Of a stretch of 64,000 bases of DNA, positions 5,275 through 51,238 are shown piece after piece. The stretch is taken from contig OX597825.1 in assembly GCA_951406725.2 (NCBI GenBank), forward strand, positions 44,516,001 to 44,580,000, in the 5' to 3' direction. The notes under the pieces are model-generated. The model searched no databases and was not told the DNA's origin. It saw only the letters and a program-made list of their open reading frames with translations. Position numbers and translations under genes: made by a program. The DNA comes from Octopus vulgaris. Lineage: Eukaryota. Within the stretch, counting starts at the first letter, position 1; the number at the start of each line of letters is the position of its first letter.

Positions 5275-5276
<2 letters not shown>

Positions 5277-5455
5277 CGCAGGAGTGGCTGTGTGGTAAGT
5301 AGCTTGCTAACCAACCACATGGTTCCGGGTTCAGTCCCACTGCGTGGCATCTTGGGCAAGTGTCTTCTGCTATAGCCCTGGGCCGACCAATGCCTTGTGA
5401 GTGGATTTGGTAGACGGAAACTGAAAGAAGCCTGTCGTATATATGTATATATGTG

Positions 5456-5541
<86 letters not shown>

Positions 5542-5747
5542 TTTGTCTGTGTTTGTCCCCCTAGTATTGCTTGACAAGCGATACTGGTGTGTTTACGTCC
5601 CCGTCACTTAGCGGTTCGGCAAAAGAGAACGATAGAATAAGTACTAAGCTTACAAAGAATAAGTCCTGGGGTCGATTTGCTCGACTAAAGGCGGTGCTCC
5701 AGCATGGTCACAGTCAAAGGACTGAAACAAGTTAAAGAGTAAAAAAG

Positions 5748-6476: not shown

Positions 6477-6499
<23 letters not shown>

Positions 6500-17553: not shown

Positions 17554-17950
17554 TCTTTTAAGGCAAAGTAACTAAAAAGTCCGAAATCTTATTGCCATTT
17601 ATAGTATAGATTTCTTTCTTTTATGCATAATATTTCCACGTGACATGGATAAGAAATAGAAGCGAACATCAGAGCTCTTGAAAGACAGTAAGTACATAAA
17701 TTGATTAACTGTTTATGCATACACGTACACATTTTAATTATAAAGCATAAATAATGCTTACACGCGCTTACACATACACACAGAAAGACAAACCACGTGG
17801 CGCGGACGAAACAAAACAAAAACAAAGCGATTTTTCACGAACAAACGCAAAAAAGAGCAAATTGGTCACTGAATTTAGGACGTCACTGAATAGTTATGCC
17901 CGGAAACATGTCTACCAAAAGAAACAGGCGAATTTCGATCTGTAAGTCTC

Positions 17951-21926: not shown

Positions 21927-28332
<6,406 letters not shown>

Positions 28333-28334
28333 GA

Positions 28335-28480
28335 TTCAAATGTTCGCTCTAGGCCAGCAATTTCGGGGTAGGGCAAGTCGATTACATCGATCCCAGTGCT
28401 TGACTGGTACTTATTTTATGGAACCCAAAATGATGAAAGGCAAAGTTGACCTCGGCGGAACTTGAATTCAGAAGGTAGTC
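28335..28480 (-). mobile_element. SINE fragment with a Meta/MESC-like core (copies at 26645-26790 and in the duplicated block)
   Basis: Minus strand reads a B-box-like 'aattcaagttcc', then 'gccgaggtcaactttgcctttcatc..aaaataagtaccag', resembling the Meta-domain core. Confidence 0.65.
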
Positions 28481-29744
28481 GGACATCTTTTTTTATTATT
28501 ATAATGTCTGCGAATATGACCAAAAAAATTGCCTGTACTCGGTTTTTAAAGAGATGACCAGGAAACCGATAGCCACCTAAGCACCGCAAGAACCACTAAC
28601 ACTACATTGTATAATAATGAAGAAGACGTTATGAGCAACGAACAGTGATAGTAAACAGCCAGGTAAGCTGCAAGAAGAAAAGGGTGAGGCGTCCGAATAG
28701 AAAATCAGAGGAATTAAGCAGAACGTTGGAATTTCAGACCTTCATCACCATGATTTTCACATTTTATCCTTTGACCAACCCACTAGAACATATAATGAAA
28801 AGGAATATTCAGATTTCCTAGATAGCTCTGACCATATTCACATAAGAAGCTACACGTGAAAGCCACTTCAGAGCGTAATGTGGAAGTCTACATGACTCAC
28901 AAAAATGGCGTTGGCCCTTTTCGACACTGAACTATCATTATCATCAATGACGATTATTAAAAAGGCAGGGTAAATAAATCCGAAATTGCAGTCGATTAAA
29001 ATTTGGACGGAAATGCGCAGTGAGGATTGAGCATAATCATTGATAATTATGTCCGGGCAAGCTTTGACCTTATTAGACCTTGCAACATATTCGTATCTGT
29101 AGTAAGCAGATATCGGAATGGCTGCAACCATAAGTATATTAACGGGAATACTTGCGCTGATTGGGCAATTTAAACTAACACAAAGAGATGGCTTCTCTCA
29201 TAGATTAAGTACTGTATTTCATAAATATATAATCGTAACACGTGCATATGTTCACACACATACATATACATACAACCATACACATATATACATATATTTA
29301 TATGTATTTATGTTTACAAGTAAATCTATACACTTAATGACACACTCTATACTGCATTCTCAGACAGACACAGAAATGCACACACACAAACACGCAATGA
29401 TGTGTGTTTGTGTGTGTGTGTATGCGTGTGCGCGCGTGTATACGTTTAGAAACAAACGATGTGAATTAAGAACATAAGGAAATGTAATATAAGGGGAGTA
29501 GACGGAAAGCGGAGGGTGGTGGGATATTTTGAAGAGAAGGAGGGAATTATAATTATATTAGATTAGAGACACTTCTGATTTATATCTAAAATGCAGAAAT
29601 ATTTTTGTCTAAAATAATTCCAATTAATAGCAAACTCTATTCTCTTGAAAATACTTCAGAATCAAGCTTAAATTTAAAAACTACTTTTGCATTGCATACA
29701 TACGTGAGTGCTTACTTATGTTCATACATCAATTTAGATTTATA

Positions 29745-29745
29745 T

Positions 29746-29801
<56 letters not shown>

Positions 29802-29914
29802 AGAGAGAGAGAGGGGGTAGATAGATAGATAGATAGATAGATTGAATTGATAGATAGATAGATAGATAGATAGATTGAATTGATAAATAGATAGATAGAT
29901 AGATAGATAGATAG

Positions 29915-29978
<64 letters not shown>

Positions 29979-29980
29979 GG
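29745..29980. repeat. (TA)n, (GA)n and (GATA)n microsatellites
   Basis: Directly visible. Confidence 0.97.
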
Positions 29981-30693
29981 TTGTAGAGATGGTAGAAATA
30001 TGAATATATATATATACGTTGTAGCAAGTGAATGTGTACGTGTCCATATCTAGTTAAAGTTCGCGAGAGGTATTTGATGACATATTTGGTAATTTGATTA
30101 AACAACTCTAATCCAGCAAAAGCCAAATATATTTCAGTAAAAATTTGTTCACATGTTCTCGGTAATCTGTCAAAGATTACAGGAAATTCTCGCTTTCCGG
30201 AAGTAATGCATTCCTTAAAATGAGGTCGTAACGTGAAATCCCGTAATGCGAATTAATTTTCTTATCGATTTTCATGTTATCAAGTAAGACTGCATTCTAA
30301 AGGACTTTTTCGAAAACAAAAAGTACAAGAAAACTAACAATACAATTACCTTTATATATGAAAATAACAATTTCTAAACATACACATTACAATATAGATA
30401 CATAAAAAGAAACATTTCAAGAGAAATACGTTAAGGAATTAATAAGAATCGTAATATAAGAGTACGTCTGATTTCTAAATCTGCCGGATCGATGTAATCG
30501 ATTTACCTCTCTCTCTAAATTGTTGGCTTTGTGCCAAAGTTTGAAACCAATATCATATGAGTACGTAAGGCGGAGAACTAACAGACCTACCGTGCCGGGG
30601 AAAATGAATTTGAACTGCGTGCTGCATTGGAAATGCCCTACCCATTCGCCCTTATACATGCACACATTCACACAAACATACACACACACACAA

Positions 30694-30732
<39 letters not shown>

Positions 30733-31094
30733 AACACACGTACATGGGCATAGGAATGTCTATGTGGCATGAAGTTTACTTCCCAACCGCGTTCTGTCCC
30801 ACAATGTGACACCCTGGGCAAGTATCTTTTGCTGTAGCTTCAGGTCAACGAAAGCCAAAAAGTATAATAAGGATCACTTCAGACAGGACTCTATAGATGA
30901 GGTACCGAGGGACCTTTCTCCCAAGACCATCCCGGGAATTGTGAGTGGAAAAAAAGAATTGGAATGGATGGATACATTTGTATCTGTGTATGTATGTGTG
31001 TATGTATGTATATATGTATGTGTGTGTGTATGTATGTGTGTGTATGTATGTATGTATGTATGTATGTATGTATGTATGTATGTATGTATGAATG

Positions 31095-31255
31095 TTCTCT
31101 TCTGTTTTTAAATATTTAAATTCTTACTCTGGGGAAGGAGCTCGTTTCTAAAAAAGATACAAAGCTCCATCGTTACAATGTGGATAAAAACGTCATAGTT
31201 TAAATTGGACAAGTCTTGCATGCTTTTATTGTCCCACATACAGATTGGATTTGTT
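31095..31255 (-). mobile_element. 3'-end fragment of the RLE family seen at 430-1971
   Basis: Minus strand encodes 'QIQSVCGTIKACK', with a 3' UTR similar to 455-510. Abuts (TATG)n at 30980-31090. Confidence 0.6.
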
Positions 31256-32376
31256 ATATAGTGTTACTTGGTTGTATTTGTGTATATATATGTATATGCA
31301 TATAATATATATTTACTTATGACACATGATAATTCCACACTCTACTTCTATCTTCCACTTCGTCTGATAATATTCATCGTATCGCGAGACGGGCGCGCGA
31401 CTCACATTATAAGAGTAAAAAGCAACGTAGTGAACGTAATTTGTATTTTCAGGTCTTATATAACACAGGTTCTTTTCTGATAGCTAATAGACACCTTTGC
31501 GCAAATCGATTAGCTTGCTTCCTCGGTGTTTTCATTTCAAATTACAATATGATACCTTTATAAACCTCAGGCAAGAATATTATGTAAGCAAGGTGATGTT
31601 TTAGAATAGAAAGTGACAGAAAGCGAGATAATAGATTAAAGATAAAAGAGGTAAAATTAAATCGAAAATGTGAGAAGGACAGCGAGGAATAGACACATAC
31701 GCGTATCCATGCGTAGTCATATATCCATGCACACATTCTTATATACAGTTGAGAAATGAGGTCGAACAGACGTGGGTAAAAATTACATTAATAATAATTA
31801 CAGTCATTGTCATATATTAAGGCATAAAAGTAAGATGATAGGATTGTAGTCATGTCTGTCTTGATATGTTTATAGTATTTGTATGCAACGAGTTCGTTTT
31901 GGAAGGCTTGGTGTTCGACTATTACCTTAATAAACAGGTCTGTAAATCAAAATCATTCATATGGTGCCCGGCCACACTTATACATTACACATACATTACC
32001 ACGCACATACACACACACACACACCGATGATTATAGATATTCACACTTTACACACGTACACACGCACACATCGCATACATATACGAAAAATATACATGAA
32101 TACACATAAACTCTGACGAAGGCTAGCAGGTCGAACCTTCAATGTTGCTGTCATTCTTATGCTTGTAAATATTTAGCAAATATGCAATCTATAAAAAAAT
32201 TAAGTAATTCTGCAATTAAATGTGAAACTATTTTTATTATAACTTGGCGTACAAGTAATATATTTAGTTAATATATTTATTGATGTGTATTTTTTGCTTT
32301 TATTTTTTAAGCTTGATACTGATTCTATTTAACTCTTAAGCCGAAACGCTAACATTGGTTGTCGAGTGGTGGTGGC

Positions 32377-32422
<46 letters not shown>

Positions 32423-32474
32423 TCACACACGCACACACACACACAGACACATATATATATATATAGGATATATG

Positions 32475-33444
32475 TGTCCGCTCACAAGGTTTTGGTCAGC
32501 TCGAGGCTATACTGAAAGACACCTACCCAAAGTGCCACGCAGTGGAGCAAAACCCAGAACGATATGATTGTTAAGCAAGCCCCTTACCACACAGCCTCTC
32601 CTGCAGTTATATATTCTTTAACTTGTTTCAGTCATTTGACTGCGGCCATGCTGGAGCACCGCCTTTTGTCGAACAAATCGACCTCAAGACTTATTCTTTG
32701 TAAGTCTAGTACTTATTCTATTGGTCTGTTTTGCCGAACCGCTACGTTACGGGAACGTAAACATACCAGCGTCGGTCATCAAGCGAAGTTCGAGGGACAA
32801 ACACAGACACACAAAGATATACATACATACATACATACACACACAAACACACATATATTTATACGACAGGCTTCTTTTAGTTTCCGTCTACCAAATACAC
32901 TCACAATGCTTTGGTCGGCCCGAGGCTATAGTAGAAGACAATTGCCCAAGGTGCCACTTAGTGGGACTGAACCCGGAACCATGTTGTTTGTAAGCAAGCT
33001 ACTTACCACACAGCCATTCCTGACCCTATATATATATCTTTATCTTTTATCTTTTACTTGTTTCAGTCATTTGACTGCGGCCATGCTGGAGCACCGCCTT
33101 TAATCGAGCAACTCGACCCCGGGACTTATTCTTTGTAAGCCCAGTACTTATTCTATCGGTCTCTTTTTTGCCGAACCGCTAAGTGACGGGGACGTAAACA
33201 CACCAGCATCGGTTGTCAAGCAATGCTAGGGGAACAAACACAGACACACAAACAAACACATATATATATATATACATATATACGACAGGCTTCTTTCAGT
33301 TTCCGTCTACCAAATCCACTCACAAGGCATTGGTCGGCCCGGGGCTATAGCAGAAGACACTTGCCCAAGATGCCACGCAGTGGACTGAACCCGGAACCAT
33401 GTGGTTGGTTAGCAAGCTACTTACCACACAGCCACTCCTGCGCC
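32475..33444 (-). mobile_element. Three head-to-tail tRNA-SINE copies (32475-32605 head only; 32615-33026; 33037-33444)
   Basis: Reverse complements of the SINE at 5275. Repeated at about 42332-43306. Confidence 0.9.
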
Positions 33445-34921
33445 TAAATTTAAAATTATACGGGTGAAAAATTGAGTATTAATTTCATTAATATCAATTT
33501 AAAACCAGTGGTCTAGCATATTAAAATCTGAAACCTCAGAAAATTATATTACATACATATAAGAGTGATGACCACTACGTGGACATCCATTATGCTAGAA
33601 GTAATTCTGCTATGGTCTTACCACTAAGAAAGGAATGTTCTCAAAAAAATTTAGTAAACGCCAGAACGTAAGCGAGCAAGACAAATAAAAAGAAACAAAA
33701 TATAGATTAATCACAAACAAATTTCCCTATTACCACTTACGTAAATACTTACGTAATTGTCCGTAGCTCATCAGTATGAGCGTCTTTGCAAATATAATTT
33801 GCAGAACTATATACGAGATATCCGCATGAGATTGAATATGTATATAGTTCTATCACTTAGTTCACTTTGTTCGTTTTTTAATGCGGCTGGGGCCCTCAAA
33901 CAAGCATTTGTTGCAAATGAATTTACAGTATTGTTACGAGTAGATCTGGCGGAAGAGAATCGAGTGTTTAGGACACTAAATTCGATATAATTGATACCAA
34001 GTTAACTTCTTGCAATTTTGCAGAGGAAAGACACAATCATTATTCACTTAGTTTTTATCAATCATGCCTGTAAAAATTTAGTGTTAATTTTTGTGGTTTC
34101 GGAGTATTTTTGACTCCTATTTTTAGCTACGCTGGTGCTTCTTAGTGCCCTGATTTTATTTATATTTTTATATGTATCTATTAAAAAAAAAGGATTCCGA
34201 TGGAATTAGGTATGCACCAGGTAGGTTTGAGTAATATCTACGGTTCCTGTAAATGGTTGGTTGAAGTCGAGTTATCAGGTAGGCTATTTCGGTTTTGTAC
34301 ACAGATAATAGTGACCCTATGAGTATTCAGCGCCTAAGGGACTTGTCCACGTTGTCTGTTACTTTGAGTAGTACGTTGTTGGTATATTCTAGGGTGTCCA
34401 ACAAGTCGTAAATTCCCTTCATGTATTATAATCAAATGAATAAAAACGCGTGACTCACTCACTCCAAATTTTGATATCACCGCCACCCCTTGAATATTCT
34501 ATAGTTTATCATTAGACTACTCCATTTGGCCGACGTTCCCTGGTATCCGATCTAATATATTTCTTCCTCGAACCCCATAATAGGCGTAGTTCATTATATA
34601 ACCTCGCCGGATTTTAAATTTATACTTTAAAATTTCTAAATTATTTATTGTAAATTTTTAAACTCCTTACGTTACATTCTACCTTACTATAACTTCAATT
34701 CCATATAACTTGACGGCCGTACTCGTCCCCACCACCTTTTCCCAACCATTAAGTACTGTATACCCCTAAGTTTTCTAGGTTTCTTTTAACCATTAAATAG
34801 GAATTCCTATACCCCGACCCTACTCTGGATCGACTAGTATGTTGTTATTAAATCATTGTATTTCCTTGTGTTTTCTTTTGCATTTTTATTCTTTGACCCT
34901 ACGGCTGATTCATTTATCTTT

Positions 34922-35021: not shown

Positions 35022-38000
35022 CCTTGGGCTATTCCAAACGAGAAATATAATTGAAACTAACAAGATTATTTGGGCTGTAGTTATGGTTGTTGCAGATAGA
35101 GTTGTATACAAAAGAAAAGAAGAAACAGAACGTAAAGCGCCATATTGGCGTAGACGAATTTGTGACAAAGTTTAAAAGACATTTAAGACAAGTTGATAGA
35201 TTGAGTAGAGGAGAATTGCAGAAGGAAAGTATCAGAATAATGTTGGAAAGAACATATGGAATAAGAGATAAAAGGTATGTTGTGATATTGGAAGAATTGA
35301 AACAAAGAGTAGTAGCGATCAAAGCAAAACTGGAAAGATATGACGTTAGAACAAAACAATTCAGGCAAAACAGATTGTTTGAAGCAAATCAGAAGAAACT
35401 GTTTCAGGTACTCGATGGACAGTTACACGTAACAATTAAATCAGATGCAGAAGAAAGTAGGGTATTCTGGAGAGGGATCTGGGACCAACCTGCGGAGCAT
35501 AATGATGCAGCGGAGTGGCTGCATGAAATCCAAGATAGGTTAAGAATATAGAAAGACAAGAAGACATAAAGATAACTACAGAAATGATTAAGAAAATTCC
35601 CAAATTCGAAGAGGCCAGGATCGGATGGTGTCCAAAGGTATTGGATGAAGAAGCTGAGAGGGTTTCATGAAAGCATTTCACAACAGTTAGATGAGTGCAT
35701 GCAGGAAGGTACAGTACCTAGCTAGATGACAAAGGAAAAGACATTGTTATGTGCCAAGGATCCTGAAAAGGAAAATGTTGCATCCAACTTTCGACCAATA
35801 ACGTGTCTTCCGCTGTGGAAACTAATGTCAGGTGCGTTGGCCGATGAACTGAACAGATACTTGGGAATAAGTGGGCTACTACCCATTAAACAGAAAGAGT
35901 GCTGAAAGAGGTACCAGGGAACGAAGTATCAGCTCTTAATTGATAATCTGATTATCAGGAACTGCAAGAGAAGACAAACAGACCTAAGCATGGCATGGGC
36001 TGACTATCGTAATGCATACTGTATGATACCACAATCCTAAATAATAAGAACAATGGAAATTTATGGAGTAGCAGAAAAAATGAGAAGCCTTGCATGGAGA
36101 AGTATGAAATGCTGGAAAACGGAATTGACAAAAGGAAATCAAGTATTAGGAGAGGTGAAAATCAAGAGAGGAATCTTCCAGGGAGACAGAATGTCCCCAC
36201 TGATCTTTGTGCTGAGAATGATCCCCTTGAGTGAAATACTGCAGAAAACAAAGTTGGGGTGTGATTTAGGAAGAGGTAAGGGATAACTGAACCAATTGCT
36301 ATTGTTGGGTACTTAGGAGCAATATCAGAAAGCCTCAAAAGGAATATCAAGGAAATTGGAATATAGTGCCCAGTAGGACTGTTATATAGTTTTGCCCCCT
36401 TGGTACGGCCAGAATAATCAAGGAAGTATCAGATGAGTGCAAAGAACGAATGGTGCTTTAGGCTACAAGTAGCAAGCCCGCTACTAGGAGTTCCAACAAA
36501 ACCTATGATAAAAAGAAATAATAATAATAAAGATTCAAATGTTCGCTCTAGGCCAGCAATTTCAGGGTGAGATAAGTCGATCACATCGATCCCAGTGCTC
36601 GACTGGTACTTATTTTATGAAACCCAAAATGATGAAAGGCAAAGTTGACCTCGGCGGAACTTGAACTCAGAAAGTAGTCGGACATCTTTTTTTATTATTA
36701 TAATATCTGTGAATATGGCCAAAAACGACTTGAAGTTATTCACAAAATGTGAAACAGAACTGGACAGCCTAGTCCAGTCTGTGCGGATTTTCTCCAGTGG
36801 TATTAAGATGGTGTTTTGGCTCTCAAATGTGCTACGATGGTAATGAGATGAGGAAAGCTTGTCAGGACAGAAAGCATAGGGTTGCCAAGTGGTAAAATGG
36901 TGAAGGCAATTAAACCTCAGTCCAGCTATAAATACCTGGGAATACTTGTAGCATATGGAATTAAACACAATGACATGAAGGAAAAGACAAAGAGAGAGTA
37001 CCTGCGGCAAGTGAGGAAAATATTGACATCAAAGCTAAATGCAAGAAACATAATTTTGGCAATAAACTCGCGCGCGGTCGCACTAGTCCGGTATTGCGCT
37101 GGCATCCTGAAATTGACAGAGGAGAAGCTAAAGGAGATGGACAGGAAGTCAAGAAAGCTCCTAATGATGCACGGAGCCCATCATCTACGTGCAGGCACTG
37201 ATCGCCTATACATAAAGAGAGCAAAAAGAGAACTGATAAATATGGAAGACTGCGTACGTATCCAACTCAAGGGCTTAATGAGAAACTTAGTGCAAAGTAA
37301 GGAAACCTTTCTAGTGTAAGTTAGGAGCGAGGGCGTATTGAAAGCGAAAAAAAAGGAAAACAAAGGAAGAAGTACAGCAAGGACATGAAGAAGAATTATG
37401 CAACAAAGGACTACATAATCAATTCCATGTAGCCTCAACCGAAATTGCTGGAAAAATAGGCGGGATTGACTAAAAAAGGAGTACTATAAAAAGAGACTGA
37501 GAGCACTATAATGGCAGCGCAAGACCTTGCATTGGCCACGAACTGGAGGGTCAACCATAAGAATGAGTAAGTGTCTCCGCTGTGTGGTGCCTGTAATAGA
37601 GCGGATGAAACCATTACCCATATCACAAACGATTTCTCTAGAGTTACCCAAAATCACTACAATGCTAAATTGGAGAATGTGGAAAGTGGGGACTCGAGAG
37701 AGTCAAGGCGTGGTATGAGCACAAAATGTAGAGAATGGCGGAGTCGGAGACTAGCAAAATCCTCTGGGATTTCCCAATCCAAACAGATCAGGTGCGAGAA
37801 CATAATAGACCGGATCTAGTAGTAGTCGAGAAGATGCACCACATGTGCTATATAGTTGATGTTGCATGCCCCTTTGACCCACGTATAATCAAGGAGGGAG
37901 GCGAAAAAATAGATAAATACAACCCTCTTAAGTACTATGAAAAATGACGAAGGTAAAGATAGTGCCAATTATTGTTGGGTACTTAGGAGCAAATCAGAAG

Positions 38001-39631
38001 GCCTCAAAAGGAATATCAAGGAAATTGGAATATAGTGCCCAGTTGGACTGTTATAAAGTTTTGCCCCCTTGGTACGGCCAGAATAATCAAGGAAGTATTA
38101 GATAAGTGCAAAGAACGAATAGCATGGTGCTTTAGGCTACAAATAGCAAGCCCGCTACGCATGCAACACTCTAGGCGTTCCAACAAAACCTATGATAAAA
38201 AGAAATAATAATAATAAAGATTCAAATGTTCGCTCTAGGCCAGCAATTTCGGGGTAGGGCAAGTCGATTACATCGATCCCAGTGCTTGACTGGTACTTAT
38301 TTTATGGAACCCAAAATGATGAAAGGCAAAGTTGACCTCGGCGGAACTTGAATTCAGAAGGTAGTCGGACATCTTTTTTTATTATTATAATGTCTGCGAA
38401 TATGACCAAAAAAATTGCCTGTACTCGGTTTTTAAAGAGATGACCAGGAAACCGATAGCCACCTAAGCACCGCAAGAACCACTAACACTACATTGTATAA
38501 TAATGAAGAAGACGTTATGAGCAACGAACAGTGATAGTAAACAGCCAGGTAAGCTGCAAGAAGAAAAGGGTGAGGCGTCCGAATAGAAAATCAGAGGAAT
38601 TAAGCAGAACGTTGGAATTTCAGACCTTCATCACCATGATTTTCACATTTTATCCTTTGACCAACCCACTAGAACATATAATGAAAAGGAATATTCAGAT
38701 TTCCTAGATAGCTCTGACCATATTCACATAAGAAGCTACACGTGAAAGCCACTTCAGAGCGTAATGTGGAAGTCTACATGACTCACAAAAATGGCGTTGG
38801 CCCTTTTCGACACTGAACTATCATTATCATCAATGACGATTATTAAAAAGGCAGGGTAAATAAATCCGAAATTGCAGTCGATTAAAATTTGGACGGAAAT
38901 GCGCAGTGAGGATTGAGCATAATCATTGATAATTATGTCCGGGCAAGCTTTGACCTTATTAGACCTTGCAACATATTCGTATCTGTAGTAAGCAGATATC
39001 GGAATGGCTGCAACCATAAGTATATTAACGGGAATACTTGCGCTGATTGGGCAATTTAAACTAACACAAAGAGATGGCTTCTCTCATAGATTAAGTACTG
39101 TATTTCATAAATATATAATCGTAACACGTGCATATGTTCACACACATACATATACATACAACCATACACATATATACATATATTTATATGTATTTATGTT
39201 TACAAGTAAATCTATACACTTAATGACACACTCTATACTGCATTCTCAGACAGACACAGAAATGCACACACACAAACACGCAATGATGTGTGTTTGTGTG
39301 TGTGTGTATGCGTGTGCGCGCGTGTATACGTTTAGAAACAAACGATGTGAATTAAGAACATAAGGAAATGTAATATAAGGGGAGTAGACGGAAAGCGGAG
39401 GGTGGTGGGATATTTTGAAGAGAAGGAGGGAATTATAATTATATTAGATTAGAGACACTTCTGATTTATATCTAAAATGCAGAAATATTTTTGTCTAAAA
39501 TAATTCCAATTAATAGCAAACTCTATTCTCTTGAAAATACTTCAGAATCAAGCTTAAATTTAAAAACTACTTTTGCATTGCATACATACGTGAGTGCTTA
39601 CTTATGTTCATACATCAATTTAGATTTATAT

Positions 39632-39687
<56 letters not shown>

Positions 39688-39734
39688 AGAGAGAGAGAGG
39701 GGGTAGATAGATAGATAGATAGATAGATTGAATT

Positions 39735-39765
<31 letters not shown>

Positions 39766-39778
39766 GATGAATTGATAA

Positions 39779-39864
<86 letters not shown>

Positions 39865-40578
39865 GGTTGTAGAGATGGTAGAAATATGAATATATATATA
39901 TACGTTGTAGCAAGTGAATGTGTACGTGTCCATATCTAGTTAAAGTTCGCGAGAGGTATTTGATGACATATTTGGTAATTTGATTAAACAACTCTAATCC
40001 AGCAAAAGCCAAATATATTTCAGTAAAAATTTGTTCACATGTTCTCGGTAATCTGTCAAAGATTACAGGAAATTCTCGCTTTCCGGAAGTAATGCATTCC
40101 TTAAAATGTGGTCGTAACGTGAAATCCCGTAATGCGAATTAATTTTCTTATCGATTTTCATGTTATCAAGTAAGACTGCATTCTAAAGGACTTTTTCGAA
40201 AACAAAAAGTACAAGAAAACTAACAATACAATTACCTTTATATATGAAAATAACAATTTCTAAACATACACATTACAATATAGATACATAAAAAGAAACA
40301 TTTCAAGAGAAATACGTTAAGGAATTAATAAGAATCGTAATATAAGAGTACGTCTGATTTCTAAATCTGCCGGATCGATGTAATCGATTTACCCTCTCTC
40401 TAAATTGTTGGCTTTGTGCCAAAGTTTGAAACCAATATCATATGAGTACGTAAGGCGGAGAACTAACAGACCTACCGTGCCGGGGAAAATGAATTTGAAC
40501 TGCGTGCTGCATTGGAAATGCCCTACCCATTCGCCCTTATACATGCACACATTCACACAAACATACACACACACACAA

Positions 40579-40611
<33 letters not shown>

Positions 40612-42243
40612 AACACACGTACATGGGCATAGGAATGTCTATGTGGCATGAAGTTTACTTCCCAACCGCGTTCTGTCCCACAATGTGACACCCTGGGCAA
40701 GTATCTTTTGCTGTAGCTTCAGGTCAACGAAAGCCAAAAAGTATAATAAGGATCACTTCAGACAGGACTCTATAGATGAGGTACCGAGGGACCTTTCTCC
40801 CAAGACCATCCCGGGAATTGTGAGTGGAAAAAAAGAATTGGAATGGATGGATACATTTGTATCTGTGTATGTATGTGTGTATGTATGTATATATGTATGT
40901 ATGTGTGTGTATGTATGTATGTGTATGTATGTATGTATGTATGTATGTATGTATGAATGTTCTCTTCTGTTTTTAAATATTTAAATTCTTACTCTGGGGA
41001 AGGAGCTCGTTTCTAAAAAAGATACAAAGCTCCATCGTTACAATGTGGATAAAAACGTCATAGTTTAAATTGGACAAGTCTTGCATGCTTTTATTGTCCC
41101 ACATACAGATTGGATTTGTTATATAGTGTTACTTGGTTGTATTTGTGTATATATATATGTATATGCATATAATATATATTTACTTATGACACATGATAAT
41201 TCCACACTCTACTTCTATCTTCCACTTCGTCTGATAATATTCATCGTATCGCGAGACGGGCGCGCGACTCACATTATAAGAGTAAAAAGCAACGTAGTGA
41301 ACGTAATTTGTATTTTCAGGTCTTATATAACACAGGTTCTTTTCTGATAGCTAATAGACACCTTTGCGCAAATCGATTAGCTTGCTTCCTCGGTGTTTTC
41401 ATTTCAAATTACAATATGATACCTTTATAAACCTCAGGCAAGAATATTATGTAAGCAAGGTGATGTTTTAGAATAGAAAGTGACAGAAAGCGAGATAATA
41501 GATTAAAGATAAAAGAGGTAAAATTAAATCGAAAATGTGAGAAGGACAGCGAGGAATAGACACATACGCGTATCCATGCGTAGTCATATATCCATGCACA
41601 CATTCTTATATACAGTTGAGAAATGAGGTCGAACAGACGTGGGTAAAAATTACATTAATAATAATTACAGTCATTGTCATATATTAAGGCATAAAAGTAA
41701 GATGATAGGATTGTAGTCATGTCTGTCTTGATATGTTTATAGTATTTGTATGCAACGAGTTCGTTTTGGAAGGCTTGGTGTTCGACTATTACCTTAATAA
41801 ACAGGTCTGTAAATCAAAATCATTCATATGGTGCCCGGCCACACTTATACATTACACATACATTACCACGCACATACACACACACACACACCGATGATTA
41901 TAGATATTCACACTTTACACACGTACACACGCACACATCGCATACATATACGAAAAATATACATGAATACACATAAACTCTGACGAAGGCTAGCAGGTCG
42001 AACCTTCAATGTTGCTGTCATTCTTATGCTTGTAAATATTTAGCAAATATGCAATCTATAAAAAAATTAAGTAATTCTGCAATTAAATGTGAAACTATTT
42101 TTATTATAACTTGGCGTACAAGTAATATATTTAGTTAATATATTTATTGATGTGTATTTTTTGCTTTTATTTTTTAAGCTTGATACTGATTCTATTTAAC
42201 TCTTAAGCCGAAACGCTAACATTGGTTGTCGAGTGGTGATGGC

Positions 42244-42279
<36 letters not shown>

Positions 42280-42288
42280 TCACACACG

Positions 42289-42322
<34 letters not shown>

Positions 42323-44784
42323 GGATATATGTGTCCGCTCACAAGGTTTTGGTCAGCTCGAGGCTATACTGAAAGACACCTACCCAAAGTGCCACGCAGT
42401 GGAGCAAAACCCAGAACGATATGATTGTTAAGCAAGCCCCTTACCACACAGCCTCTCCTGCAGTTATATATTCTTTAACTTGTTTCAGTCATTTGACTGC
42501 GGCCATGCTGGAGCACCGCCTTTTGTCGAACAAATCGACCTCAAGACTTATTCTTTGTAAGTCTAGTACTTATTCTATTGGTCTGTTTTGCCGAACCGCT
42601 ACGTTACGGGAACGTAAACATACCAGCGTCGGTCATCAAGCGAAGTTCGAGGGACAAACACAGACACACAAAGATATACATACATACATACATACATACA
42701 CACACAAACACACATATATTTATACGACAGGCTTCTTTTAGTTTCCGTCTACCAAATACACTCACAATGCTTTGGTCGGCCCGAGGCTATAGTAGAAGAC
42801 AATTGCCCAAGGTGCCACTTAGTGGGACTGAACCCGGAACCATGTTGTTTGTAAGCAAGCTACTTACCACACAGCCATTCCTGACCCTATATATATATCT
42901 TTATCTTTTATCTTTTACTTGTTTCAGTCATTTGACTGCGGCCATGCTGGAGCACCGCCTTTAATCGAGCAACTCGACCCCGGGACTTATTCTTTGTAAG
43001 CCCAGTACTTATTCTATCGGTCTCTTTTTTGCCGAACCGCTAAGTGACGGGGACGTAAACACACCAGCATCGGTTGTCAAGCAATGCTAGGGGAACAAAC
43101 ACAGACACACAAACAAACACATATATATATATATACATATATACGACAGGCTTCTTTCAGTTTCCGTCTACCAAATCCACTCACAAGGCATTGGTCGGCC
43201 CGGGGCTATAGCAGAAGACACTTGCCCAAGATGCCACGCAGTGGGACTGAACCCGGAACCATGTGGTTGGTTAGCAAGCTACTTACCACACAGCCACTCC
43301 TGCGCCTAAATTTAAAATTATACGGGTGAAAAATTGAGTATTAATTTCATTAATATCAATTTAAAACCAGTGGTCTAGCATATTAAAATCTGAAACCTCA
43401 GAAAATTATATTACATACATATAAGAGTGATGACCACTACGTGGACATCCATTATGCTAGAAGTAATTCTGCTATGGTCTTACCACTAAGAAAGGAATGT
43501 TCTCAAAAAAATTTAGTAAACGCCAGAACGTAAGCGAGCAAGACAAATAAAAAGAAACAAAATATAGATTAATCACAAACAAATTTCCCTATTACCACTT
43601 ACGTAAATACTTACGTAATTGTCCGTAGCTCATCAGTATGAGCGTCTTTGCAAATATAATTTGCAGAACTATATACGAGATATCCGCATGAGATTGAATA
43701 TGTATATAGTTCTATCACTTAGTTCACTTTGTTCGTTTTTTAATGCGGCTGGGGCCCTCAAACAAGCATTTGTTGCAAATGAATTTACAGTATTGTTACG
43801 AGTAGATCTGGCGGAAGAGAATCGAGTGTTTAGGACACTAAATTCGATATAATTGATACCAAGTTAACTTCTTGCAATTTTGCAGAGGAAAGACACAATC
43901 ATTATTCACTTAGTTTTTATCAATCATGCCTGTAAAAATTTAGTGTTAATTTTTGTGGTTTCGGAGTATTTTTGACTCCTATTTTTAGCTACGCTGGTGC
44001 TTCTTAGTGCCCTGATTTTATTTATATTTTTATATGTATCTATTAAAAAAAAAGGATTCCGATGGAATTAGGTATGCACCAGGTAGGTTTGAGTAATATC
44101 TACGGTTCCTGTAAATGGTTGGTTGAAGTCGAGTTATCAGGTAGGCTATTTCGGTTTTGTACACAGATAATAGTGACCCTATGAGTATTCAGCGCCTAAG
44201 GGACTTGTCCACGTTGTCTGTTACTTTGAGTAGTACGTTGTTGGTATATTCTAGGGTGTCCAACAAGTCGTAAATTCCCTTCATGTATTATAATCAAATG
44301 AATAAAAACGCGTGACTCACTCACTCCAAATTTTGATATCACCGCCACCCCTTGAATATTCTATAGTTTATCATTAGACTACTCCATTTGGCCGACGTTC
44401 CCTGGTATCCGATCTAATATATTTCTTCCTCGAACCCCATAATAGGCGTAGTTCATTATATAACCTCGCCGGATTTTAAATTTATACTTTAAAATTTCTA
44501 AATTATTTATTGTAAATTTTTAAACTCCTTACGTTACATTCTACCTTACTATAACTTCAATTCCATATAACTTGACGGCCGTACTCGTCCCCACCACCTT
44601 TTCCCAACCATTAAGTACTGTATACCCCTAAGTTTTCTAGGTTTCTTTTAACCATTAAATAGGAATTCCTATACCCCGACCCTACTCTGGATCGACTAGT
44701 ATGTTGTTATTAAATCATTGTATTTCCTTGTGTTTTCTTTTGCATTTTTTATTCTTTGACCCTACGGCTGATTCATTTATCTTT
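35022..44784 (+). repeat. Near-identical second copy of 25135-34921
   Basis: The ORF track repeats at an offset of about 9887. Differences are a few SNPs and microsatellite or homopolymer lengths. Confidence 0.98.
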
Positions 44785-45821: not shown

Positions 45822-46258
45822 AATAGAAAGATGAATTTTCTTGTTACAGATTATTCAAAAGTTTAACCGATACCTGGGTAGCAAAAATCACAGCAGAAAA
45901 AAGCACGGTTGGAGATAAGACCATTTGGTGTTGCAACCGTGCGTTGGTGCGGATAATTGAAGTTTAATATCATTAGTGAATGGAAGAAATGGAGTTGAAC
46001 GAAGATTGTACAGAATTCCTTTTATTACATTCTACACATGTTTCAAAGGGCTCTTAAGGAGCGTCCTCGTTCGAATTGCGTTGCTGCGCCTCTGTTTTGT
46101 TTTGTTCTGTCAACGGAATTCCTGTTTTTTCCTGAAGAGAAAGCCACAATATGGTACCCTTATCAGAATTTGTAAATTTGTGGCCTTTGAAACATGTGTA
46201 GAATGTAATAAAAGGAATTCTGTACAATCTTCGTTCAACTCCATTTCTTCCATTCACT

Positions 46259-46262
<4 letters not shown>
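45822..46262. mobile_element. Non-autonomous Penelope-like pseudo-LTR element with a partial inverted copy
   Basis: 77-bp inverted arms at 45973-46049 and 46184-46260. Shares motifs (GATTTTTGCT.CCC.GGTA, AACTCCATTT) with the pLTR at 51440-51722. Flanked by (TA)n. Confidence 0.75.
46128..46203 (+). ncRNA. Type-I hammerhead ribozyme motif
   Basis: TTC-CTGAAGA-GAAAGCCACAA..TTGTGGCCTTT-GAAA-CATGT-GTA-GAA. Stem I is weak (3 bp). Confidence 0.7.
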
Positions 46263-46302
<40 letters not shown>

Positions 46303-46634
46303 CCAGATAGAGCGGAAGAAAAATGAGTTTATCCAGTCTTACATGCTTATAAGACCACACATCAAAACACTGGACAACATAATTGAAGATATTGTGGCAA
46401 AGCTGATGAGGATGAAGAGGGCGAAAAAGAGAAGGAAGCCGGAAGTCTCTGTGATCCAGGGGTTCCTCAGGAAAATGGGTCACCTACCCCGGTGAACGAC
46501 CAAGTAGTGAAGGATAGGGGAGCCAAGGGAGCAGAAACCGGAAGCCCCCTGTACCAGTGGTCCTACGAAGAAATAAAAAAATTAGAAAAATTAGAAAAAC
46601 AGAAGAAAAAAGGAAGGACCGAAAACAAAAATAA

Positions 46635-47129
46635 GGAGGGAAAAGGCAAAACAACCAAACTGAAACCCCAACCCACCACACAAACAGCAAAGAACCCCAT
46701 GGAGGATCCAATGCCACCCAGTACACTTCAGGAAAGAAGAAATCTGGAAGGTACCGAAGAACCTGTAAGTTCTACCTGCGGGGCAAATGTTGGCATGGTG
46801 AGGACGGCAAAAACTGCCGGTTCGCCCACCCGACACCCCGTCAGAACTTCAGGGGACTCAAAGAGAAAAACTTTACCGAGGGAACACAAGAAATGTCTCC
46901 CAGGAAAACTTTCAAAAACGAAGTGCGCTCCTCAGATGTTCTGCGCAACGCAGCAGCTGAGCAAGAGTCTTTTTTATGCATGGCGGAAAGAATTGTCCGG
47001 CAGCTAACCTGGCTACACCAAGCACAGAGAAGGAACCCTGCCCACCACTATGCAAGACCACCACAGTCAACAGACACGGGATGGCCTCCCCTAACGCCTG
47101 CACAGCCGTCACCCCAATACTTTTACTAA
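46635..47129 (+). pseudogene. LINE ORF1 C-terminal part with a CCCH zinc finger
   Basis: Stop-free frame contains CKFYLRGKCWHGEDGKNCRFAH (from 46764) and overlaps the ORF2 start. The upstream part is frameshifted or truncated. Confidence 0.7.
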
Positions 47130-50080
47130 ATATTGGGGGCCTGTTGCATCAAAATAGAAACAAAATTTCTTTCCTGAGAGATCTTACTGCATGCAATCAA
47201 GCCCTATGCATAGCACTTGTGGAAACTCACCTCAACCTTGATATAGAGGACGCAGAAGTACACATACCAAACTATGCCATACTGCGAACAGACAGAAGGG
47301 AAAGGAGCCATGGTGGAGTTGCTGTATACATCCGAGATGACCTCACACCCCAGGTCTTGATGACATACTCAAATTCGGTATGTGACACCTTAATTGTATA
47401 CATAAGACAACATAATATAGTCATATGCAATACATATTGCCCACCGGATGCCCCAAATCACATAGGCAAGTTTGAAGATTGCCTCACAAGAATTAAAGAA
47501 ATCCTCATGAATCTGGAACACCACGTGACCATATTTCTTATGGGTGATTTCAACTTCCCCAACGTCAAATGGCCCGAAGGTCACATACTCTCAGGAATGA
47601 ATCATTGCAAGCAAGTACAGGTGGAGTCCCTGCTCAACCTCACCAATGCCTTATTCATGGAGCAAGTTGTACTCAAGCCAACTAGGGCGAATAACATTCT
47701 GGATCTCTGCTTCACGAACAATATGGACATCATTCATGATGTGAAAGTGACACCGACATCAGTTTCGGATCACAACATAATAGAGCTGTCTATGTTTGGG
47801 CCGAAAGTAACCAGAGACATACAGCCTAAAGGAAGCACCCGAAATCTCTCCAATCTGAACTTCCACAAAGCAGATTGGAAATCGATCCAAAAAGAGATCC
47901 TCAGAGAGGACTGGCCGGAATGTCTCTCCACACCAGACATTGACATGAAACTAGAATGTTTCATGTCTTCTGTGCAAGCCGTATGCCAGAAATATGTCCC
48001 AGAGCACAAGGCCAAAACAAATAGGAGCAAGATTCCAAGAGACAGGAAGATCCTCATGAGACGACGGACGAAGGTTGCAAATCGTCTCAACCAACATCCC
48101 AAAAGTAGCGAAACGTCCCGCCTAAAAACAACACTGATGGAGATCGAAAAAAGGCTGCAACAATCCTATGTGAAGGAGAAAGCAGACAAAGAAGCCTGGG
48201 TTATAAAAAACATTAAATCAAACCCAAAGGCCTTCTTTCATTACGCGAAAGAAACAGTCTCAGTGCACTACAAGATAGGACCCCTCCTCCAAAAGGATGG
48301 CTCCCTCACAGACAGTCCAACTATGATCAGTGAGATGCTGAATGACCAGTTCAAAAGTGTCTTTACCACCCCGTTGGAACACAGACAAGTGAACGAACCA
48401 GTGGACTTCTTTGCCGCCTCACCTATAACCAGCGAGGCGGTTACAATAGAATGTATTGACATTAGCGAAAAAGATGTCCTACTAGCCATAGATGAAGTGG
48501 ACACAAACTCAGCTGCTGGTCCAGACGGTTTCCCAGCCATCCTCCTCAAAGCGTGTAAGCATGCCCTGGCAAAACCCCTCAAGATTCTCTTCCAGAGCTT
48601 TCTTGCGAATGGCAAACTGCCAAGCAAGCTGAAGGAGGGAATAATATGCCCAATACATAAAGGGGGAAGTAGAGCAGATGCCAAAAACTATAGGCCTATC
48701 TCTCTGACTTCACACATCAGCAAAGTCATGGAAAGGATAGTCAGAAAGAAACTAATCGCATTCCTTGAGGAAAATAACTTGCTGAGTAATACCCAGCATG
48801 GTTTTCGACCAGGTAGGAGCTGCCTGACCCAGCTCTTACAGCATTATGACTGGGTGTTGAGGCAGTTACTCAACAAATCAAATGTGGACGTAATCTACCT
48901 TGATTTTGCAAAAGCTTTTGACAAGGTGGATCATGGTATGATATGCCACAAACTACGTGACCTCGGCATAGCTGGAAAACTTGGAGTGTGGTTGCATGAC
49001 TTCCTGAAAGATAGGAGTCAGGCAGTAGTGGTTAATGGAGCCACCTCTATGAACACACAAATAGTGAGCGGTGTTCCACAGGGCACTGTCTTGGGACCAC
49101 TGCTTTTTATAGTGGCCCTCTCAGATATGCCCTCAAATGCCCGGATAGCCACTCTGGCCAGCTATGCAGACGATACGAAAGTCTCGCAGAAAATACAGAA
49201 CCCCAGCGATGTTGCACACCTGCAGCAGGAGTTGGACTCAATCTACAGATGGGCTGAGGATAATAATATGCAGTTTAATGCTGAAAAATTCCAGGCCCTG
49301 CGCTACCAGCATCCAAAACTGAATATTAAACTTACAGGATACACCGGTCCACAGGGAATTTCAATCCCAGAGCCTAAGTCTGTGAGGGACCTGGGTATCG
49401 ACATGAGTGATGATACCTCTTTCCAAGTGCACATTACCAGGATGGCGACAAAGTGCAGACGACTGGCTGGGTGGATCCTAAGAACATTCAGAACCAGAGA
49501 TAAGGAAACCATGATGGTCCTCTGGCGGACATTCGTCCTCAGTCGCCTGGATTACTGCTCACAGCTATGGTCACCCACCAGTGTAAAATTAACAGCGGAC
49601 CTTGAAGCAATCCAGAGAAGATTCACAAAGAAGATCGTCTCTTTGCAACAGCTCAGCTACTGGGAAAGGTTGAAACAGCTAAGACTCTACTCCCTGGAGA
49701 GAAGACGGGAGAGGTATGCAGTAATATATGTCTGGAAGATCCTGGAAGGAATTGTGCCAAATTTTGGCATTGTAAGCTACACCAATGCTAGAACGGGACG
49801 ACACTGCATAGTGCCAAAGATCCCAGCAATGCCATCACGCTTCAGGACCAGCTTCTGCAACAGCCTGGGTTTCAAGGGCCCACAGCTTTTTAATATTCTC
49901 CCAAAGAGTCTGAGGAACTTGCACAAAGTAGATGTAGCGGTTTTTAAATCAAAGCTGGACATCTTCCTGTCAAGAGTCCCAGATGAACCTACCTCACGGC
50001 AAGAGGTGCAAATGAGAGTAGCTGTATCAAACTCCATTCTTCACCAAGTGCCACATATTAGACGAGGTTCGTCGCAATAA
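46976..50080 (+). CDS. LINE ORF2: APE endonuclease plus reverse transcriptase (1034 aa, uninterrupted)
   Basis: APE motifs LVETHL, GDFNFP, SDHN. RT motifs YRPISLTS, QHGFR, YLDFAKAFDKV, GVPQGTVLGPLLF, YADDTK. C-terminal SLERRRERY. Confidence 0.96.
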   Translation: MHGGKNCPAANLATPSTEKEPCPPLCKTTTVNRHGMASPNACTAVTPILLLNIGGLLHQNRNKISFLRDLTACNQALCIALVETHLNLDIEDAEVHIPNYAILRTDRRERSHGGVAVYIRDDLTPQVLMTYSNSVCDTLIVYIRQHNIVICNTYCPPDAPNHIGKFEDCLTRIKEILMNLEHHVTIFLMGDFNFPNVKWPEGHILSGMNHCKQVQVESLLNLTNALFMEQVVLKPTRANNILDLCFTNNMDIIHDVKVTPTSVSDHNIIELSMFGPKVTRDIQPKGSTRNLSNLNFHKADWKSIQKEILREDWPECLSTPDIDMKLECFMSSVQAVCQKYVPEHKAKTNRSKIPRDRKILMRRRTKVANRLNQHPKSSETSRLKTTLMEIEKRLQQSYVKEKADKEAWVIKNIKSNPKAFFHYAKETVSVHYKIGPLLQKDGSLTDSPTMISEMLNDQFKSVFTTPLEHRQVNEPVDFFAASPITSEAVTIECIDISEKDVLLAIDEVDTNSAAGPDGFPAILLKACKHALAKPLKILFQSFLANGKLPSKLKEGIICPIHKGGSRADAKNYRPISLTSHISKVMERIVRKKLIAFLEENNLLSNTQHGFRPGRSCLTQLLQHYDWVLRQLLNKSNVDVIYLDFAKAFDKVDHGMICHKLRDLGIAGKLGVWLHDFLKDRSQAVVVNGATSMNTQIVSGVPQGTVLGPLLFIVALSDMPSNARIATLASYADDTKVSQKIQNPSDVAHLQQELDSIYRWAEDNNMQFNAEKFQALRYQHPKLNIKLTGYTGPQGISIPEPKSVRDLGIDMSDDTSFQVHITRMATKCRRLAGWILRTFRTRDKETMMVLWRTFVLSRLDYCSQLWSPTSVKLTADLEAIQRRFTKKIVSLQQLSYWERLKQLRLYSLERRRERYAVIYVWKILEGIVPNFGIVSYTNARTGRHCIVPKIPAMPSRFRTSFCNSLGFKGPQLFNILPKSLRNLHKVDVAVFKSKLDIFLSRVPDEPTSRQEVQMRVAVSNSILHQVPHIRRGSSQ

Positions 50081-50698
50081 CAGTGTAGCACAAAACGGCG
50101 GTGCATCAGCATGGCCGCAGCTCTGAGCTGAAACTAGAAAAAAAAAATATATATATATATATATATTGTTGTGAGTTCAACTTAGGGACAGTTGATGGTG
50201 ACCTACTTTGCTGGCTTGGAGACTCCCCGACCCCTTCAGGTGAATTAGGGTTAATTTTGGAGGGCTGCCCCCTTAAGTAAGCAGTTCAGGGTGTGAGAGA
50301 CAGTGAAGAAGAGGAGGAAGAATGTAGTGAGGAAGACAGATTAAGGAATCTGAGCGGGGATAGAGAGAGTATTAGAGCTAAGAGAGGGATTGAGGGTAGT
50401 GACAGAGCAAGAAGTTTTGGACAGTCGGTATTTGGAGTTCAAGGCAAGCAGTCGGCGGTTTTGGAGTATTGGGACAGAGAGATATATATACAGAGGAATA
50501 GGCGGCTGATAGAGAGGAACTACAATATGAGACATTGGCTAATGTACGGTACGTGTTGTGAATTGTAACGTGAATTGTTGTATTGATATGTGAAGAAAAA
50601 CAAGGAAAAGTGCTAGGAATTTTCCAAACAATTCTAGATATTACTCTATAATCAATTCACATAAGGTTAGGATAGGTTTTTCAAACACAAAAAATCTC

Positions 50699-51238
50699 TT
50701 GCAAATCATATCTTCTCATAATAACAAACTGTTAAATATTAATACATTTACTAATACTAACATTAATTTAGCTAATACCATCCAACCTTCTAGAAATATT
50801 AATAACAAGGTTATTGTATCTGAAGTCAATTCCAATAGAATTAAGTTTATGTCAAGTAACTCTAAGATTAAAAATTCTATATACCAGTGTATAATCAGTA
50901 CTCGTAATAAAGTACGATTTTACATTGGAAGCACATCGTTAGAGTTATCTAAAAGAATTTCTGTCCATTACTCAACATTTAGGGATAGAAATAAACGGAA
51001 TAGTACCGGTCTCAGCAAACTGATTTGGGATTTAAAAGACCACAATGAACAATTTCATTTAGAATGGTTGATCCTCTCAATTTCGATACCATATGACAAA
51101 GGCAAGAAATTCTGTCTTCTCTGTAATTCTGAGTTATTTTTCATTATTTTTTCTAAAAATACTCTTGTAAACACGGTTATAGAGCGAGCATACAGATGTA
51201 AGCATTGGCAAAAACATACATTTAGTGCATATAAGTAG
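50699..51238 (+). pseudogene. GIY-YIG endonuclease domain of a Penelope-like element
   Basis: 'SIYQCII..FYIGST..KRISVHYSTF..STGLSKLIWDLK..CLLCNSE..CKH'. Confidence 0.85.

What the first reader, a model, noticed from the sequence alone, without database searches (positions are those of the whole stretch)
46301..50147. Intact LINE shares a covarying double-hairpin 3' tail with the window's dominant SINE: candidate autonomous partner
Seen: the LINE 3' UTR (50097-50137) is GGCGGTGCATCAGCATGGCCGCAGCTCTGAGCTGAAACTAG. The SINE tail (33057-33098 minus; diverged at 5690-5731) is GGCGGTGCTCCAGCATGGCCGCAGTCAAATGACTGAAACAAG. The first 24 nt match at 22 positions, and both differences fall at or next to the loop of hairpin 1 (GCGG-TGC..GCA-TGG-CCGC). 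Hairpin 2 differs in sequence but keeps its pairing (CAGCT..AGCTG versus CAGTC..GACTG). The LINE and the 5275 SINE both sit in (TA)n, and ORF2 is uninterrupted. Established: stringent-type LINEs recognise 3' stem-loops that partner SINEs carry. Inference: this LINE family or a relative mobilises this SINE, and this copy may encode functional ORF2. I cannot tell whether the pair is already catalogued.
Basis: partly seen in the sequence, partly recalled or inferred. Interest (0 to 1): 0.85.

Follow-up and report, generated by a model that had tools for sequence, protein, structure and literature searches.

The report
SINE tail points to sister LINE
In this probably octopus genome a very common short jumping element ends in the same small tail, predicted to fold into two hairpins, as a whole group of long jumping elements, so it likely borrows their copying enzyme, and its tail matches a sister family better than the truncated long element seen here, a familiar kind of partnership in a new animal group.

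Summary
The shared tail is real: 22 of 24 nt match. It is part of the LINE family (1,018 exact genome copies), not a fused SINE remnant. "Intact" is wrong. The window copy lacks about 1.2-1.8 kb of 5' sequence, including the ORF1 start; only ORF2 is open. At least five related CR1-like families carry the same double hairpin, each with its own terminal repeat. The window family (A) ends in poly(A). A sister family (F, 62% ORF2 identity) ends in the same 7-mer and octamer repeat as the SINE, and 76 of 79 sampled SINE tails score best against F, none against A alone. Age points the other way: A (about 2.6% diverged) matches the young SINE subfamilies (2.5%), while all F copies seen are far younger (0.2-0.3%). 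Best reading: a stringent-type LINE-SINE partnership with this lineage, the tail likely taken from the F line, and A possibly helping in trans. A-type tails also sit fused to 5S rRNA and to another SINE just before hairpin 1, a likely capture route. CR1-SINE pairs are known in bivalves; my searches found no octopus pair in print. Earlier scan notes touch TA targeting and passengers with this or a similar tail, not this pair.

The parts
46301..50147 (+). 5'-truncated copy of CR1-like LINE family A
   Evidence: Other copies extend 1.2-1.8 kb further upstream; 40 of 40 best hits are 99-100% identical over the 3' 441 nt
46301..47129 (+). ORF1 remnant: start missing, frame broken, CCCH zinc finger at about 46755-46832
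   Evidence: Pfam zf-CCCH E 4.5e-4; 1-nt deletions after 46389, 46544, 46659 and a 10-nt duplication at 46575-46584 against 18 copies
46961..50080 (+). ORF2, open for 1,039 codons; in-frame Met at 46976 and 47081; EN about 47198-47782, RT about 48653-49345
   Evidence: 3 of 3,120 nt differ from the majority of 20 copies
50097..50116 (+). Predicted hairpin 1 (7 pairs, 1x1 G-G loop, 4-nt terminal loop)
50118..50130 (+). Predicted hairpin 2 (5 pairs; the two inner pairs change on both sides between families)
50131..50147 (+). Family-A terminus: 7-mer plus A10; differs from the SINE's octamer repeat
46263..46300 (.). (TA)n on the 5' side of the insertion
50148..50166 (.). (TA)n on the 3' side of the insertion
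33039..33444 (-). SINE copy, young subfamily; tail 33057-33098
32615..33022 (-). SINE copy, older subfamily, in tandem with the previous one; tail 32622-32663
5275..5744 (+). SINE copy in (TA)n; tail 5690-5731
42472..43306 (-). Two SINE copies duplicating 32615-33444 inside the 9.8-kb duplication; not independent

Best explanation
The window holds a 5'-truncated copy, with an open ORF2, of one of at least five related CR1-like LINE families that all end in the same predicted double hairpin followed by a family-specific repeat, and the abundant SINE likely borrows the reverse transcriptase of this lineage through that tail, which it likely took from the line leading to sister family F rather than from the window's family A. 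Shown by sequence: the shared tail, the family-specific termini, the SINE-F identity over the last 15 nt, and insertion at TA. Inferred from eel and zebrafish L2 experiments: ORF2 binds the stem-loop, and reverse transcription starts on the terminal repeat annealed at a nicked TA site. Inferred from chimeras: the enzyme tends to leave its template at the foot of hairpin 1 and can jump to a Pol III RNA, which is likely how the SINE gained the tail. The window copy has lost its own promoter and ORF1 start, so it is likely not autonomous.
For: Tail is intrinsic to A: (1,018 exact copies). Same hairpins in families B, C, D/E and F, all with ORF2 upstream. These families form one clade against the 11 more distant library proteins (100/100; one unnamed library protein, P0004, falls inside), and F lies outside the A+B+D+E clade (97/99). 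Majority-tail match to the SINE: F 44/50 (terminus 15/15), A 40/50 (11/15), C 38, B 37, E 34; 76 of 79 sampled SINE tails score best to F alone, 1 ties A/F, 1 ties F/C, 1 goes to B. Octamer present in 60/64 F, 55/67 SINE and 0/42 A ends. F has an open ORF2 in 5 of 20 fetched copies and both ORFs open in L257. 80 of 96 SINE heads follow TA. Tail-only A inserts 6 of 20; whole 5S plus A tail at L344; 9 genome matches of a 5S-type end 5-20 nt before the A tail, control 0. Loop and terminal repeat are both needed in L2 assays (PMC4176376, abstract and section 13; PMC1636434, passages).
Against: Age. F copies are 0.2-0.3% from their majority, A 2.6%, young SINE subfamilies 2.5%, the older bulk 6%, and no intermediate-age F copies turned up. 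F's visible burst therefore cannot have made most of the 76,331 exact-tail SINE copies. Over the two hairpins alone, A and F match the SINE equally (29/35 each). The SINE's hairpin-1 loop (UCCA) equals neither F's (CCCA) nor A's (AUCA), and the linker base after hairpin 1 is G in A and the young SINE but U in F. Long TA runs follow 27/28 F and 12/20 A ends but only 8/30 SINE ends (control 13%). Only 1 Mb was sampled without bias, so a better-matching family may be unseen. No functional test was run.
Confidence: 0.55

Rival explanations
1. Family A, alone or in relay with B, is the working driver of the SINE waves. The enzymes of this lineage read the shared fold and tolerate any A-rich end, so the SINE's terminal repeat records only ancestry.
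For: A (2.6%) and the young SINE subfamilies (2.5%) are the same age. A matches the hairpins as well as F does and shares the G linker base. A has about twice as many exact-tail copies as F (1,018 against 583). A tails are fused to Pol III RNAs, so A particles met such RNAs.
Against: 0 of 42 A ends carry the octamer found in 55 of 67 SINE ends. In zebrafish L2, loop swaps between families abolish activity (PMC4176376, section 13), and A's loops differ from the SINE's. The search for LINE tails directly behind SINE ends gave 23 loci, 5 of A type, often with TA between, which fits later nested insertion.
Confidence: 0.25
2. The direction is reversed or the donor is lost. F recently took its last 15 nt from the very abundant SINE RNA, and the SINE's original donor is an extinct or unsampled family, for example of the C type that ends in the related 7-mer repeat.
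For: F is very young and has no older layer in my material. C and C2 end in the 7-mer repeat seen in some older SINE copies.
Against: F's hairpin 2 stem is C-like, not SINE-like, so any transfer would be confined to the last 15 nt. C's 7-mer before the repeat differs from the SINE's at 3 positions.
Confidence: 0.15
3. A LINE of another clade (Dong/R4-like), as one earlier scan note suggested from a single locus, is the partner.
For: Only the unchecked note e1-9584639, whose SINE may or may not be this one. Dong-like elements are abundant here.
Against: 0 of 25 Dong-like 3' ends show the double hairpin within 230 nt (read by eye), and Dong protein queries hit none of the upstream regions of 372 tail matches.
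Confidence: 0.03
4. The LINE tail in the window is a SINE remnant fused by chance, or the similarity is chance.
For: None.
Against: 1,018 exact copies of the A-specific tail; 30 of 30 inspected family copies end in it; five further families carry variants that keep the pairing.
Confidence: 0.01

Closest known systems
CR1-14_CGi with BivaV-SINE2 and BivaCORE-SINE1 (PMC4824008, passages; PMC4758252, passages), and the bivalve CR1, CR1-Zenon, L2 and Nimb pairs (PMC11481361, passages and supplementary file 4)
   Same: Mollusc tRNA-type SINE sharing a 35-60 nt 3' tail with a CR1-group LINE, with conserved stem-loops and compensatory changes.
   Different: The bivalve tails printed in supplementary file 4 do not resemble this one. 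Here one tail is shared by at least five coexisting families that differ in terminal repeat, and the host is probably an octopus.
Eel UnaL2 with UnaSINE1/2, and zebrafish ZfL2-1/2 (PMC1636434, passages; PMC4176376, abstract and section 13)
   Same: Stem-loop with an internal mismatch plus a terminal short repeat, the two parts shown there to be needed for stringent recognition and priming.
   Different: Those are L2 elements with one stem-loop and were tested in cells. This has two tandem hairpins and no test.
U6-L1 and other small-RNA/LINE chimeras (bioRxiv 10.1101/2025.02.02.635956, abstract and outline only); 5S-headed SINE3 with CR1-4_DR (PMC3747384, table passage)
   Same: A whole Pol III RNA joined to a LINE 3' end in single insertions.
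   Different: Here the joins cluster just before hairpin 1, so the chimera carries only the recognition tail, at the same boundary where the SINE's similarity begins.
Octopus OK/OR1/OR2 SINEs (Ohshima and Okada 1994; seen only as a citation, sequences not seen)
   Same: Recalled resemblance to this tRNA-like SINE; OR1 is listed as a CORE-SINE in PMC4824008 (passage).
   Different: Identity with any of the three was not tested; no partner LINE for them appears in the papers I could read.

Membership tests
CR1-group LINE | ORF2 with AP-type endonuclease followed by RT | tested here: met
   Pfam PF14529, PF03372, PF00078 and catalytic motifs
CR1-group LINE | No RNase H, restriction-like endonuclease or C-terminal zinc finger | tested here: met
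   No such Pfam hit at E<=0.1; C-terminal LERRR motif is CR1-like (label recalled)
CR1-group LINE | RT tree places it with named CR1 references rather than L2, Zenon or Crack | not testable with these tools
The CR1 label rests on architecture and recalled motifs
CR1-group LINE | 3' end in a short tandem repeat; copies 5'-truncated | tested here: met
   B, C, E and F end in short repeats, A in poly(A); truncation
CR1-Zenon | Tail homologous to bivalve Zenon-linked tails; clade membership | tested here: inconclusive
   No tail resemblance to supplementary file 4 of PMC11481361; Zenon reported reduced or absent in cephalopods (PMC10294476, passages); no tree test
Stringent LINE-SINE pair (A with SINE) | Shared 3' sequence and stem-loop with compensatory changes | tested here: met
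   40/50 nt; two inner pairs of hairpin 2 changed on both sides
Stringent LINE-SINE pair (A with SINE) | Same terminal repeat | tested here: not met
   Octamer in 0/42 A ends against 55/67 SINE ends
Stringent LINE-SINE pair (A with SINE) | Overlapping activity period | tested here: met
   A 2.6% (14 copies scored of 20), young SINE subfamilies 2.5% (15 and 20 copies)
Stringent LINE-SINE pair (F with SINE) | Shared 3' sequence, stem-loop and terminal repeat | tested here: met
   44/50 nt, terminus 15/15, one both-sided change in hairpin 2
Stringent LINE-SINE pair (F with SINE) | Overlapping activity period | tested here: not met
   F 0.2-0.3% (24 scored of 28) against SINE 2.5-6%; no older F layer seen
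Stringent LINE-SINE pair (either) | ORF2 mobilises the SINE tail in trans, dependent on the stem-loop | not testable with these tools
   Needs a cell assay
tRNA-derived CORE-SINE | tRNA-like head with A and B boxes followed by the CORE motif | tested here: inconclusive
   A/B-box-like stretches by eye and the CCTTGGG motif (PMC5786205, section 21) in the older copy; ARAGORN and Rfam found no tRNA

The most novel reading that the evidence does not exclude
This LINE lineage uses a two-part address: an invariant double hairpin for binding, and a family-specific terminal repeat that decides which passenger a family can prime. Its enzyme drops off at the foot of hairpin 1 and grafts exactly the recognition tail onto Pol III RNAs, so it keeps making new SINE prototypes. 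The F line would then be a low-copy driver that has powered one of the largest SINE expansions in this genome while staying nearly invisible itself.
Probability: 0.2. Interest if true: 0.62.

Novelty: new member of a known kind. Interest (0 to 1): 0.38.

Why it matters
SINEs are a major part of octopus genomes (11.6% of O. vulgaris in PMC13282606, parts 1-2 of 3 read), and the papers I could search name no engine for them. This gives a concrete candidate lineage with open ORF2 copies. The sibling families share the fold but differ in loop and terminal repeat, which makes a ready panel for asking what sets partner choice in stringent LINEs. The principle itself is established, so the gain is a new system, not a new mechanism.

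Tried and rejected
Chance fusion: rejected. Dong/R4 partner: not supported, 0 of 25 ends. A LINE with the SINE's exact hairpin 2: none among 30 of 399 loci from a pattern favouring LINE context (8 B-type and 2 A-lineage LINE tails, 20 SINE tails), and none among the LINE-linked tails of 372 matches. Older F-line copies: none in the loci in hand, apart from copies with internal deletions or insertions; a 2-mismatch pattern gave 524 matches, the 100 listed all exact. Expression: no RNA holder listed for family F. Horizontal transfer of F: contigs from three runs with other organism labels match F's last 703 nt with 0-1 difference, but my control stretch proved to be an old repeat, so no conclusion. 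LINE tails directly behind SINE ends: 23 loci, ambiguous. Clade naming through library relatives: no names. Rfam and ARAGORN on the SINE head: nothing meaningful. Print searches for an octopus LINE-SINE pair or this tail motif; none describes it. Supplements of PMC11481361 and PMC13282606 lack the motif. SINEBase supplements, Albertin 2015, Ohshima and Okada 1994, Repbase, Dfam and the Zenodo library of PMC13282606 could not be seen and may bear on novelty. Scan look-ups by sequence found no look-alike.
Full report
Setting. The window lies in G000 (2.80 Gb, 227 contigs). It is SINE-rich and holds Dong-like elements, which among molluscs are reported almost only from cephalopods (PMC10294476, passages), and SINE abundance is an octopus trait (PMC8967140, passages). 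I take the host to be probably an octopus; this is inference and the species was not determined.

Check of the observation. The quoted strings are present; LINE and SINE tails match at 22 of the first 24 nt, differing at positions 9-10. The motif occurs 6 times in the window against 0 in shuffles, but two of the five SINE tails belong to a 9.8-kb duplication across a 100-N gap. Both tails fold into two hairpins. Both-sided changes fall mainly on the two inner pairs of hairpin 2. They reflect a few events among relatives, so the shuffle counts are not probabilities.

The window copy. ORF2 is open for 1,039 codons with EN and RT domains and lies 3 nt from the majority of 20 other copies. None of those 20 has an open ORF2 (longest 805 codons), though many 1-nt indels lie in base runs and may be assembly errors. 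The element is not intact. The five longest copies begin about 1.2-1.8 kb further upstream, with a 42-nt tandem repeat, a pyrimidine tract and the ORF1 start, and the ORF1 remnant has three private 1-nt deletions. It is a young, 5'-truncated insertion in (TA)n.

The tail belongs to a lineage. Family A has 1,018 exact tail copies, and 30 of 30 inspected best hits end in the tail plus poly(A). In 100 evenly spaced 10-kb stretches, 132 tail matches sorted into 96 SINE-classed, 7 LINE-linked and 29 other (mostly older SINE variants and tail-only pieces). The LINE-linked ones and follow-up searches gave families B, C/C2, D/E and F, all with ORF2 upstream and the same hairpins but different terminal repeats. 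In a 27-row protein tree these families form one clade (100/100, with one unnamed library protein inside), and F lies outside the A+B+D+E clade (97/99). One fragment under 150 residues and two short library proteins were left out.

Family F. One tail-only piece in the sample led to F. Its ORF2 is 61.6% identical to A's. A pattern for its tail gives 583 matches, mostly F (28 of the first 30). Five of 20 fetched copies have ORF2 open from the endonuclease start, and L257 has both ORFs open. The majority tail matches the SINE at 44 of 50 positions and at 15 of 15 in the terminus, against 40 and 11 for A. Of 79 sampled SINE tails, 76 score best to F alone and none to A alone. The octamer repeat is in 60 of 64 F, 55 of 67 SINE and 0 of 42 A ends. 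In eel L2 both the stem-loop and the terminal repeat are required (PMC1636434, passages), so this match is the most informative sequence signal.

Evidence against F. In sets taken by genome position, F copies are 0.2-0.3% from their majority (24 scored of 28), A 2.6% (14 of 20), the two young SINE subfamilies 2.5% (15 and 20 copies) and the older bulk 6% (70 copies). I found no older F layer. The SINE has 76,331 exact-tail copies, so F's visible burst is too late for most of them; an earlier, low-copy F line has to be assumed. Over the hairpins alone A and F tie, and the SINE's first loop matches neither. A terminal repeat is copied from the SINE's own RNA, so it shows who donated the tail more directly than who drives it now.

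Target site. Three or more TA units follow 12 of 20 A, 27 of 28 F and 8 of 30 SINE ends, against 654 of 5,000 random sites. 80 of 96 SINE heads follow TA; the A may belong to the element, but T precedes it far more often than the 31% background. All fit nicking at TA. The LINEs' stronger link to long arrays is unexplained: age, survival bias, or a different driver are possible.

How the tail is captured. Six of 20 A-tail loci carry only the tail, starting within a few bases of hairpin 1; a simple geometric truncation model gives P of about 1e-5 to 4e-4. F shows 3 of 28, not clearly above chance. One of the six is a complete 5S rRNA (Rfam 105 bits) plus trailer joined to the tail; another is a different tRNA-like SINE joined to it. 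A genome pattern found 9 loci with a 5S-type end 5-20 nt before the A tail, control 0; eight have differing, mostly T-rich trailers and one looks like A's own UTR. Only L344 was confirmed as 5S. I infer template switching at the hairpin foot, of the kind known for U6-L1 chimeras (abstract only), at the same boundary where SINE-LINE similarity starts.

Comparison and novelty. It works like a stringent LINE-SINE pair. CR1-group partners with stem-loops are described for bivalve SINEs (PMC4824008, PMC4758252, PMC11481361; passages), with unrelated tails. Eight paper searches found no octopus pair. PMC9115989 (passages) reports RTE and Dong elements and has no CR1 mention; PMC13282606 counts 13 recently active CR1 families and names no partner in the two of three parts and the supplement I read. 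Repbase, Dfam and SINEBase could not be checked. The CR1 label itself rests on architecture and recalled motifs, not on a referenced tree.

Verdict. A real, lineage-wide 3' signal and a likely SINE partnership, of a known kind. The window copy is not autonomous, and its family is not the best tail match. Dependence on this lineage is about 0.9 likely; tail from the F line about 0.55. Interest 0.38.

Noticed in passing
L344:858-1046 (G000:C1 near 23,288,700); 9 loci: Complete 5S rRNA plus trailer joined to the family-A tail and poly(A), in TA; eight further matches, seven with other trailers, suggest repeated independent 5S-tail chimeras.
   Followed up: partly
L343 (G000:C1:17536578-17537808): A different tRNA-like SINE joined directly to the family-A tail.
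   Followed up: partly
L257 (G000:C20:8829200-8836200): Family F copy with both ORFs open; ORF1 has weak Myb/SANT-like and CCCH hits. F copies cluster locally on C1 (71-74 Mb) and C2 (57-60 Mb) in the list.
   Followed up: partly
L257:5700-6402: F's 3' end is matched with 0-1 difference over 703 nt by contigs of three runs with other organism labels; recent spread between species could not be tested.
   Followed up: partly
window 25135-34921 and 35022-44784: 9.8-kb direct duplication, 99.4% identical, on either side of a 100-N gap; probably an assembly overlap.
   Followed up: no
window 17894-21920 and 22652-23160; fragments 9851-9977 and 11271-11453: Dong/R4-like LINE (RT, zf-RVT; clade label recalled) and a second 3' fragment in (TAA)n; a further fragment is split by a mariner-type element.
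   Followed up: partly
window 9976-11272: Mariner-type transposon (Pfam Transposase_1 at 10244-10963, minus strand) with 39-nt inverted ends.
   Followed up: no
window 45967-46266: 300-nt element with 83-nt inverted ends (MITE-like) directly upstream of the LINE's TA array.
   Followed up: no
window 5860-6483 and 15716-17553: A 625-nt palindrome just after the 5275 SINE, and a foldback element with 593-nt arms holding 148-154-nt tandem units.
   Followed up: no
window 50594-51238: 214-codon frame with a GIY-YIG-like look, possibly a Penelope remnant (recalled motif; no Pfam hit).
   Followed up: partly
window 23211-24803: Very long (ATG)n array, about 530 units.
   Followed up: no
L255 and L261: A family-B 3' part followed by TA and a family-F copy, shared over 5.5 kb at two places; many LINEs of this lineage sit next to each other in TA arrays.
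   Followed up: no
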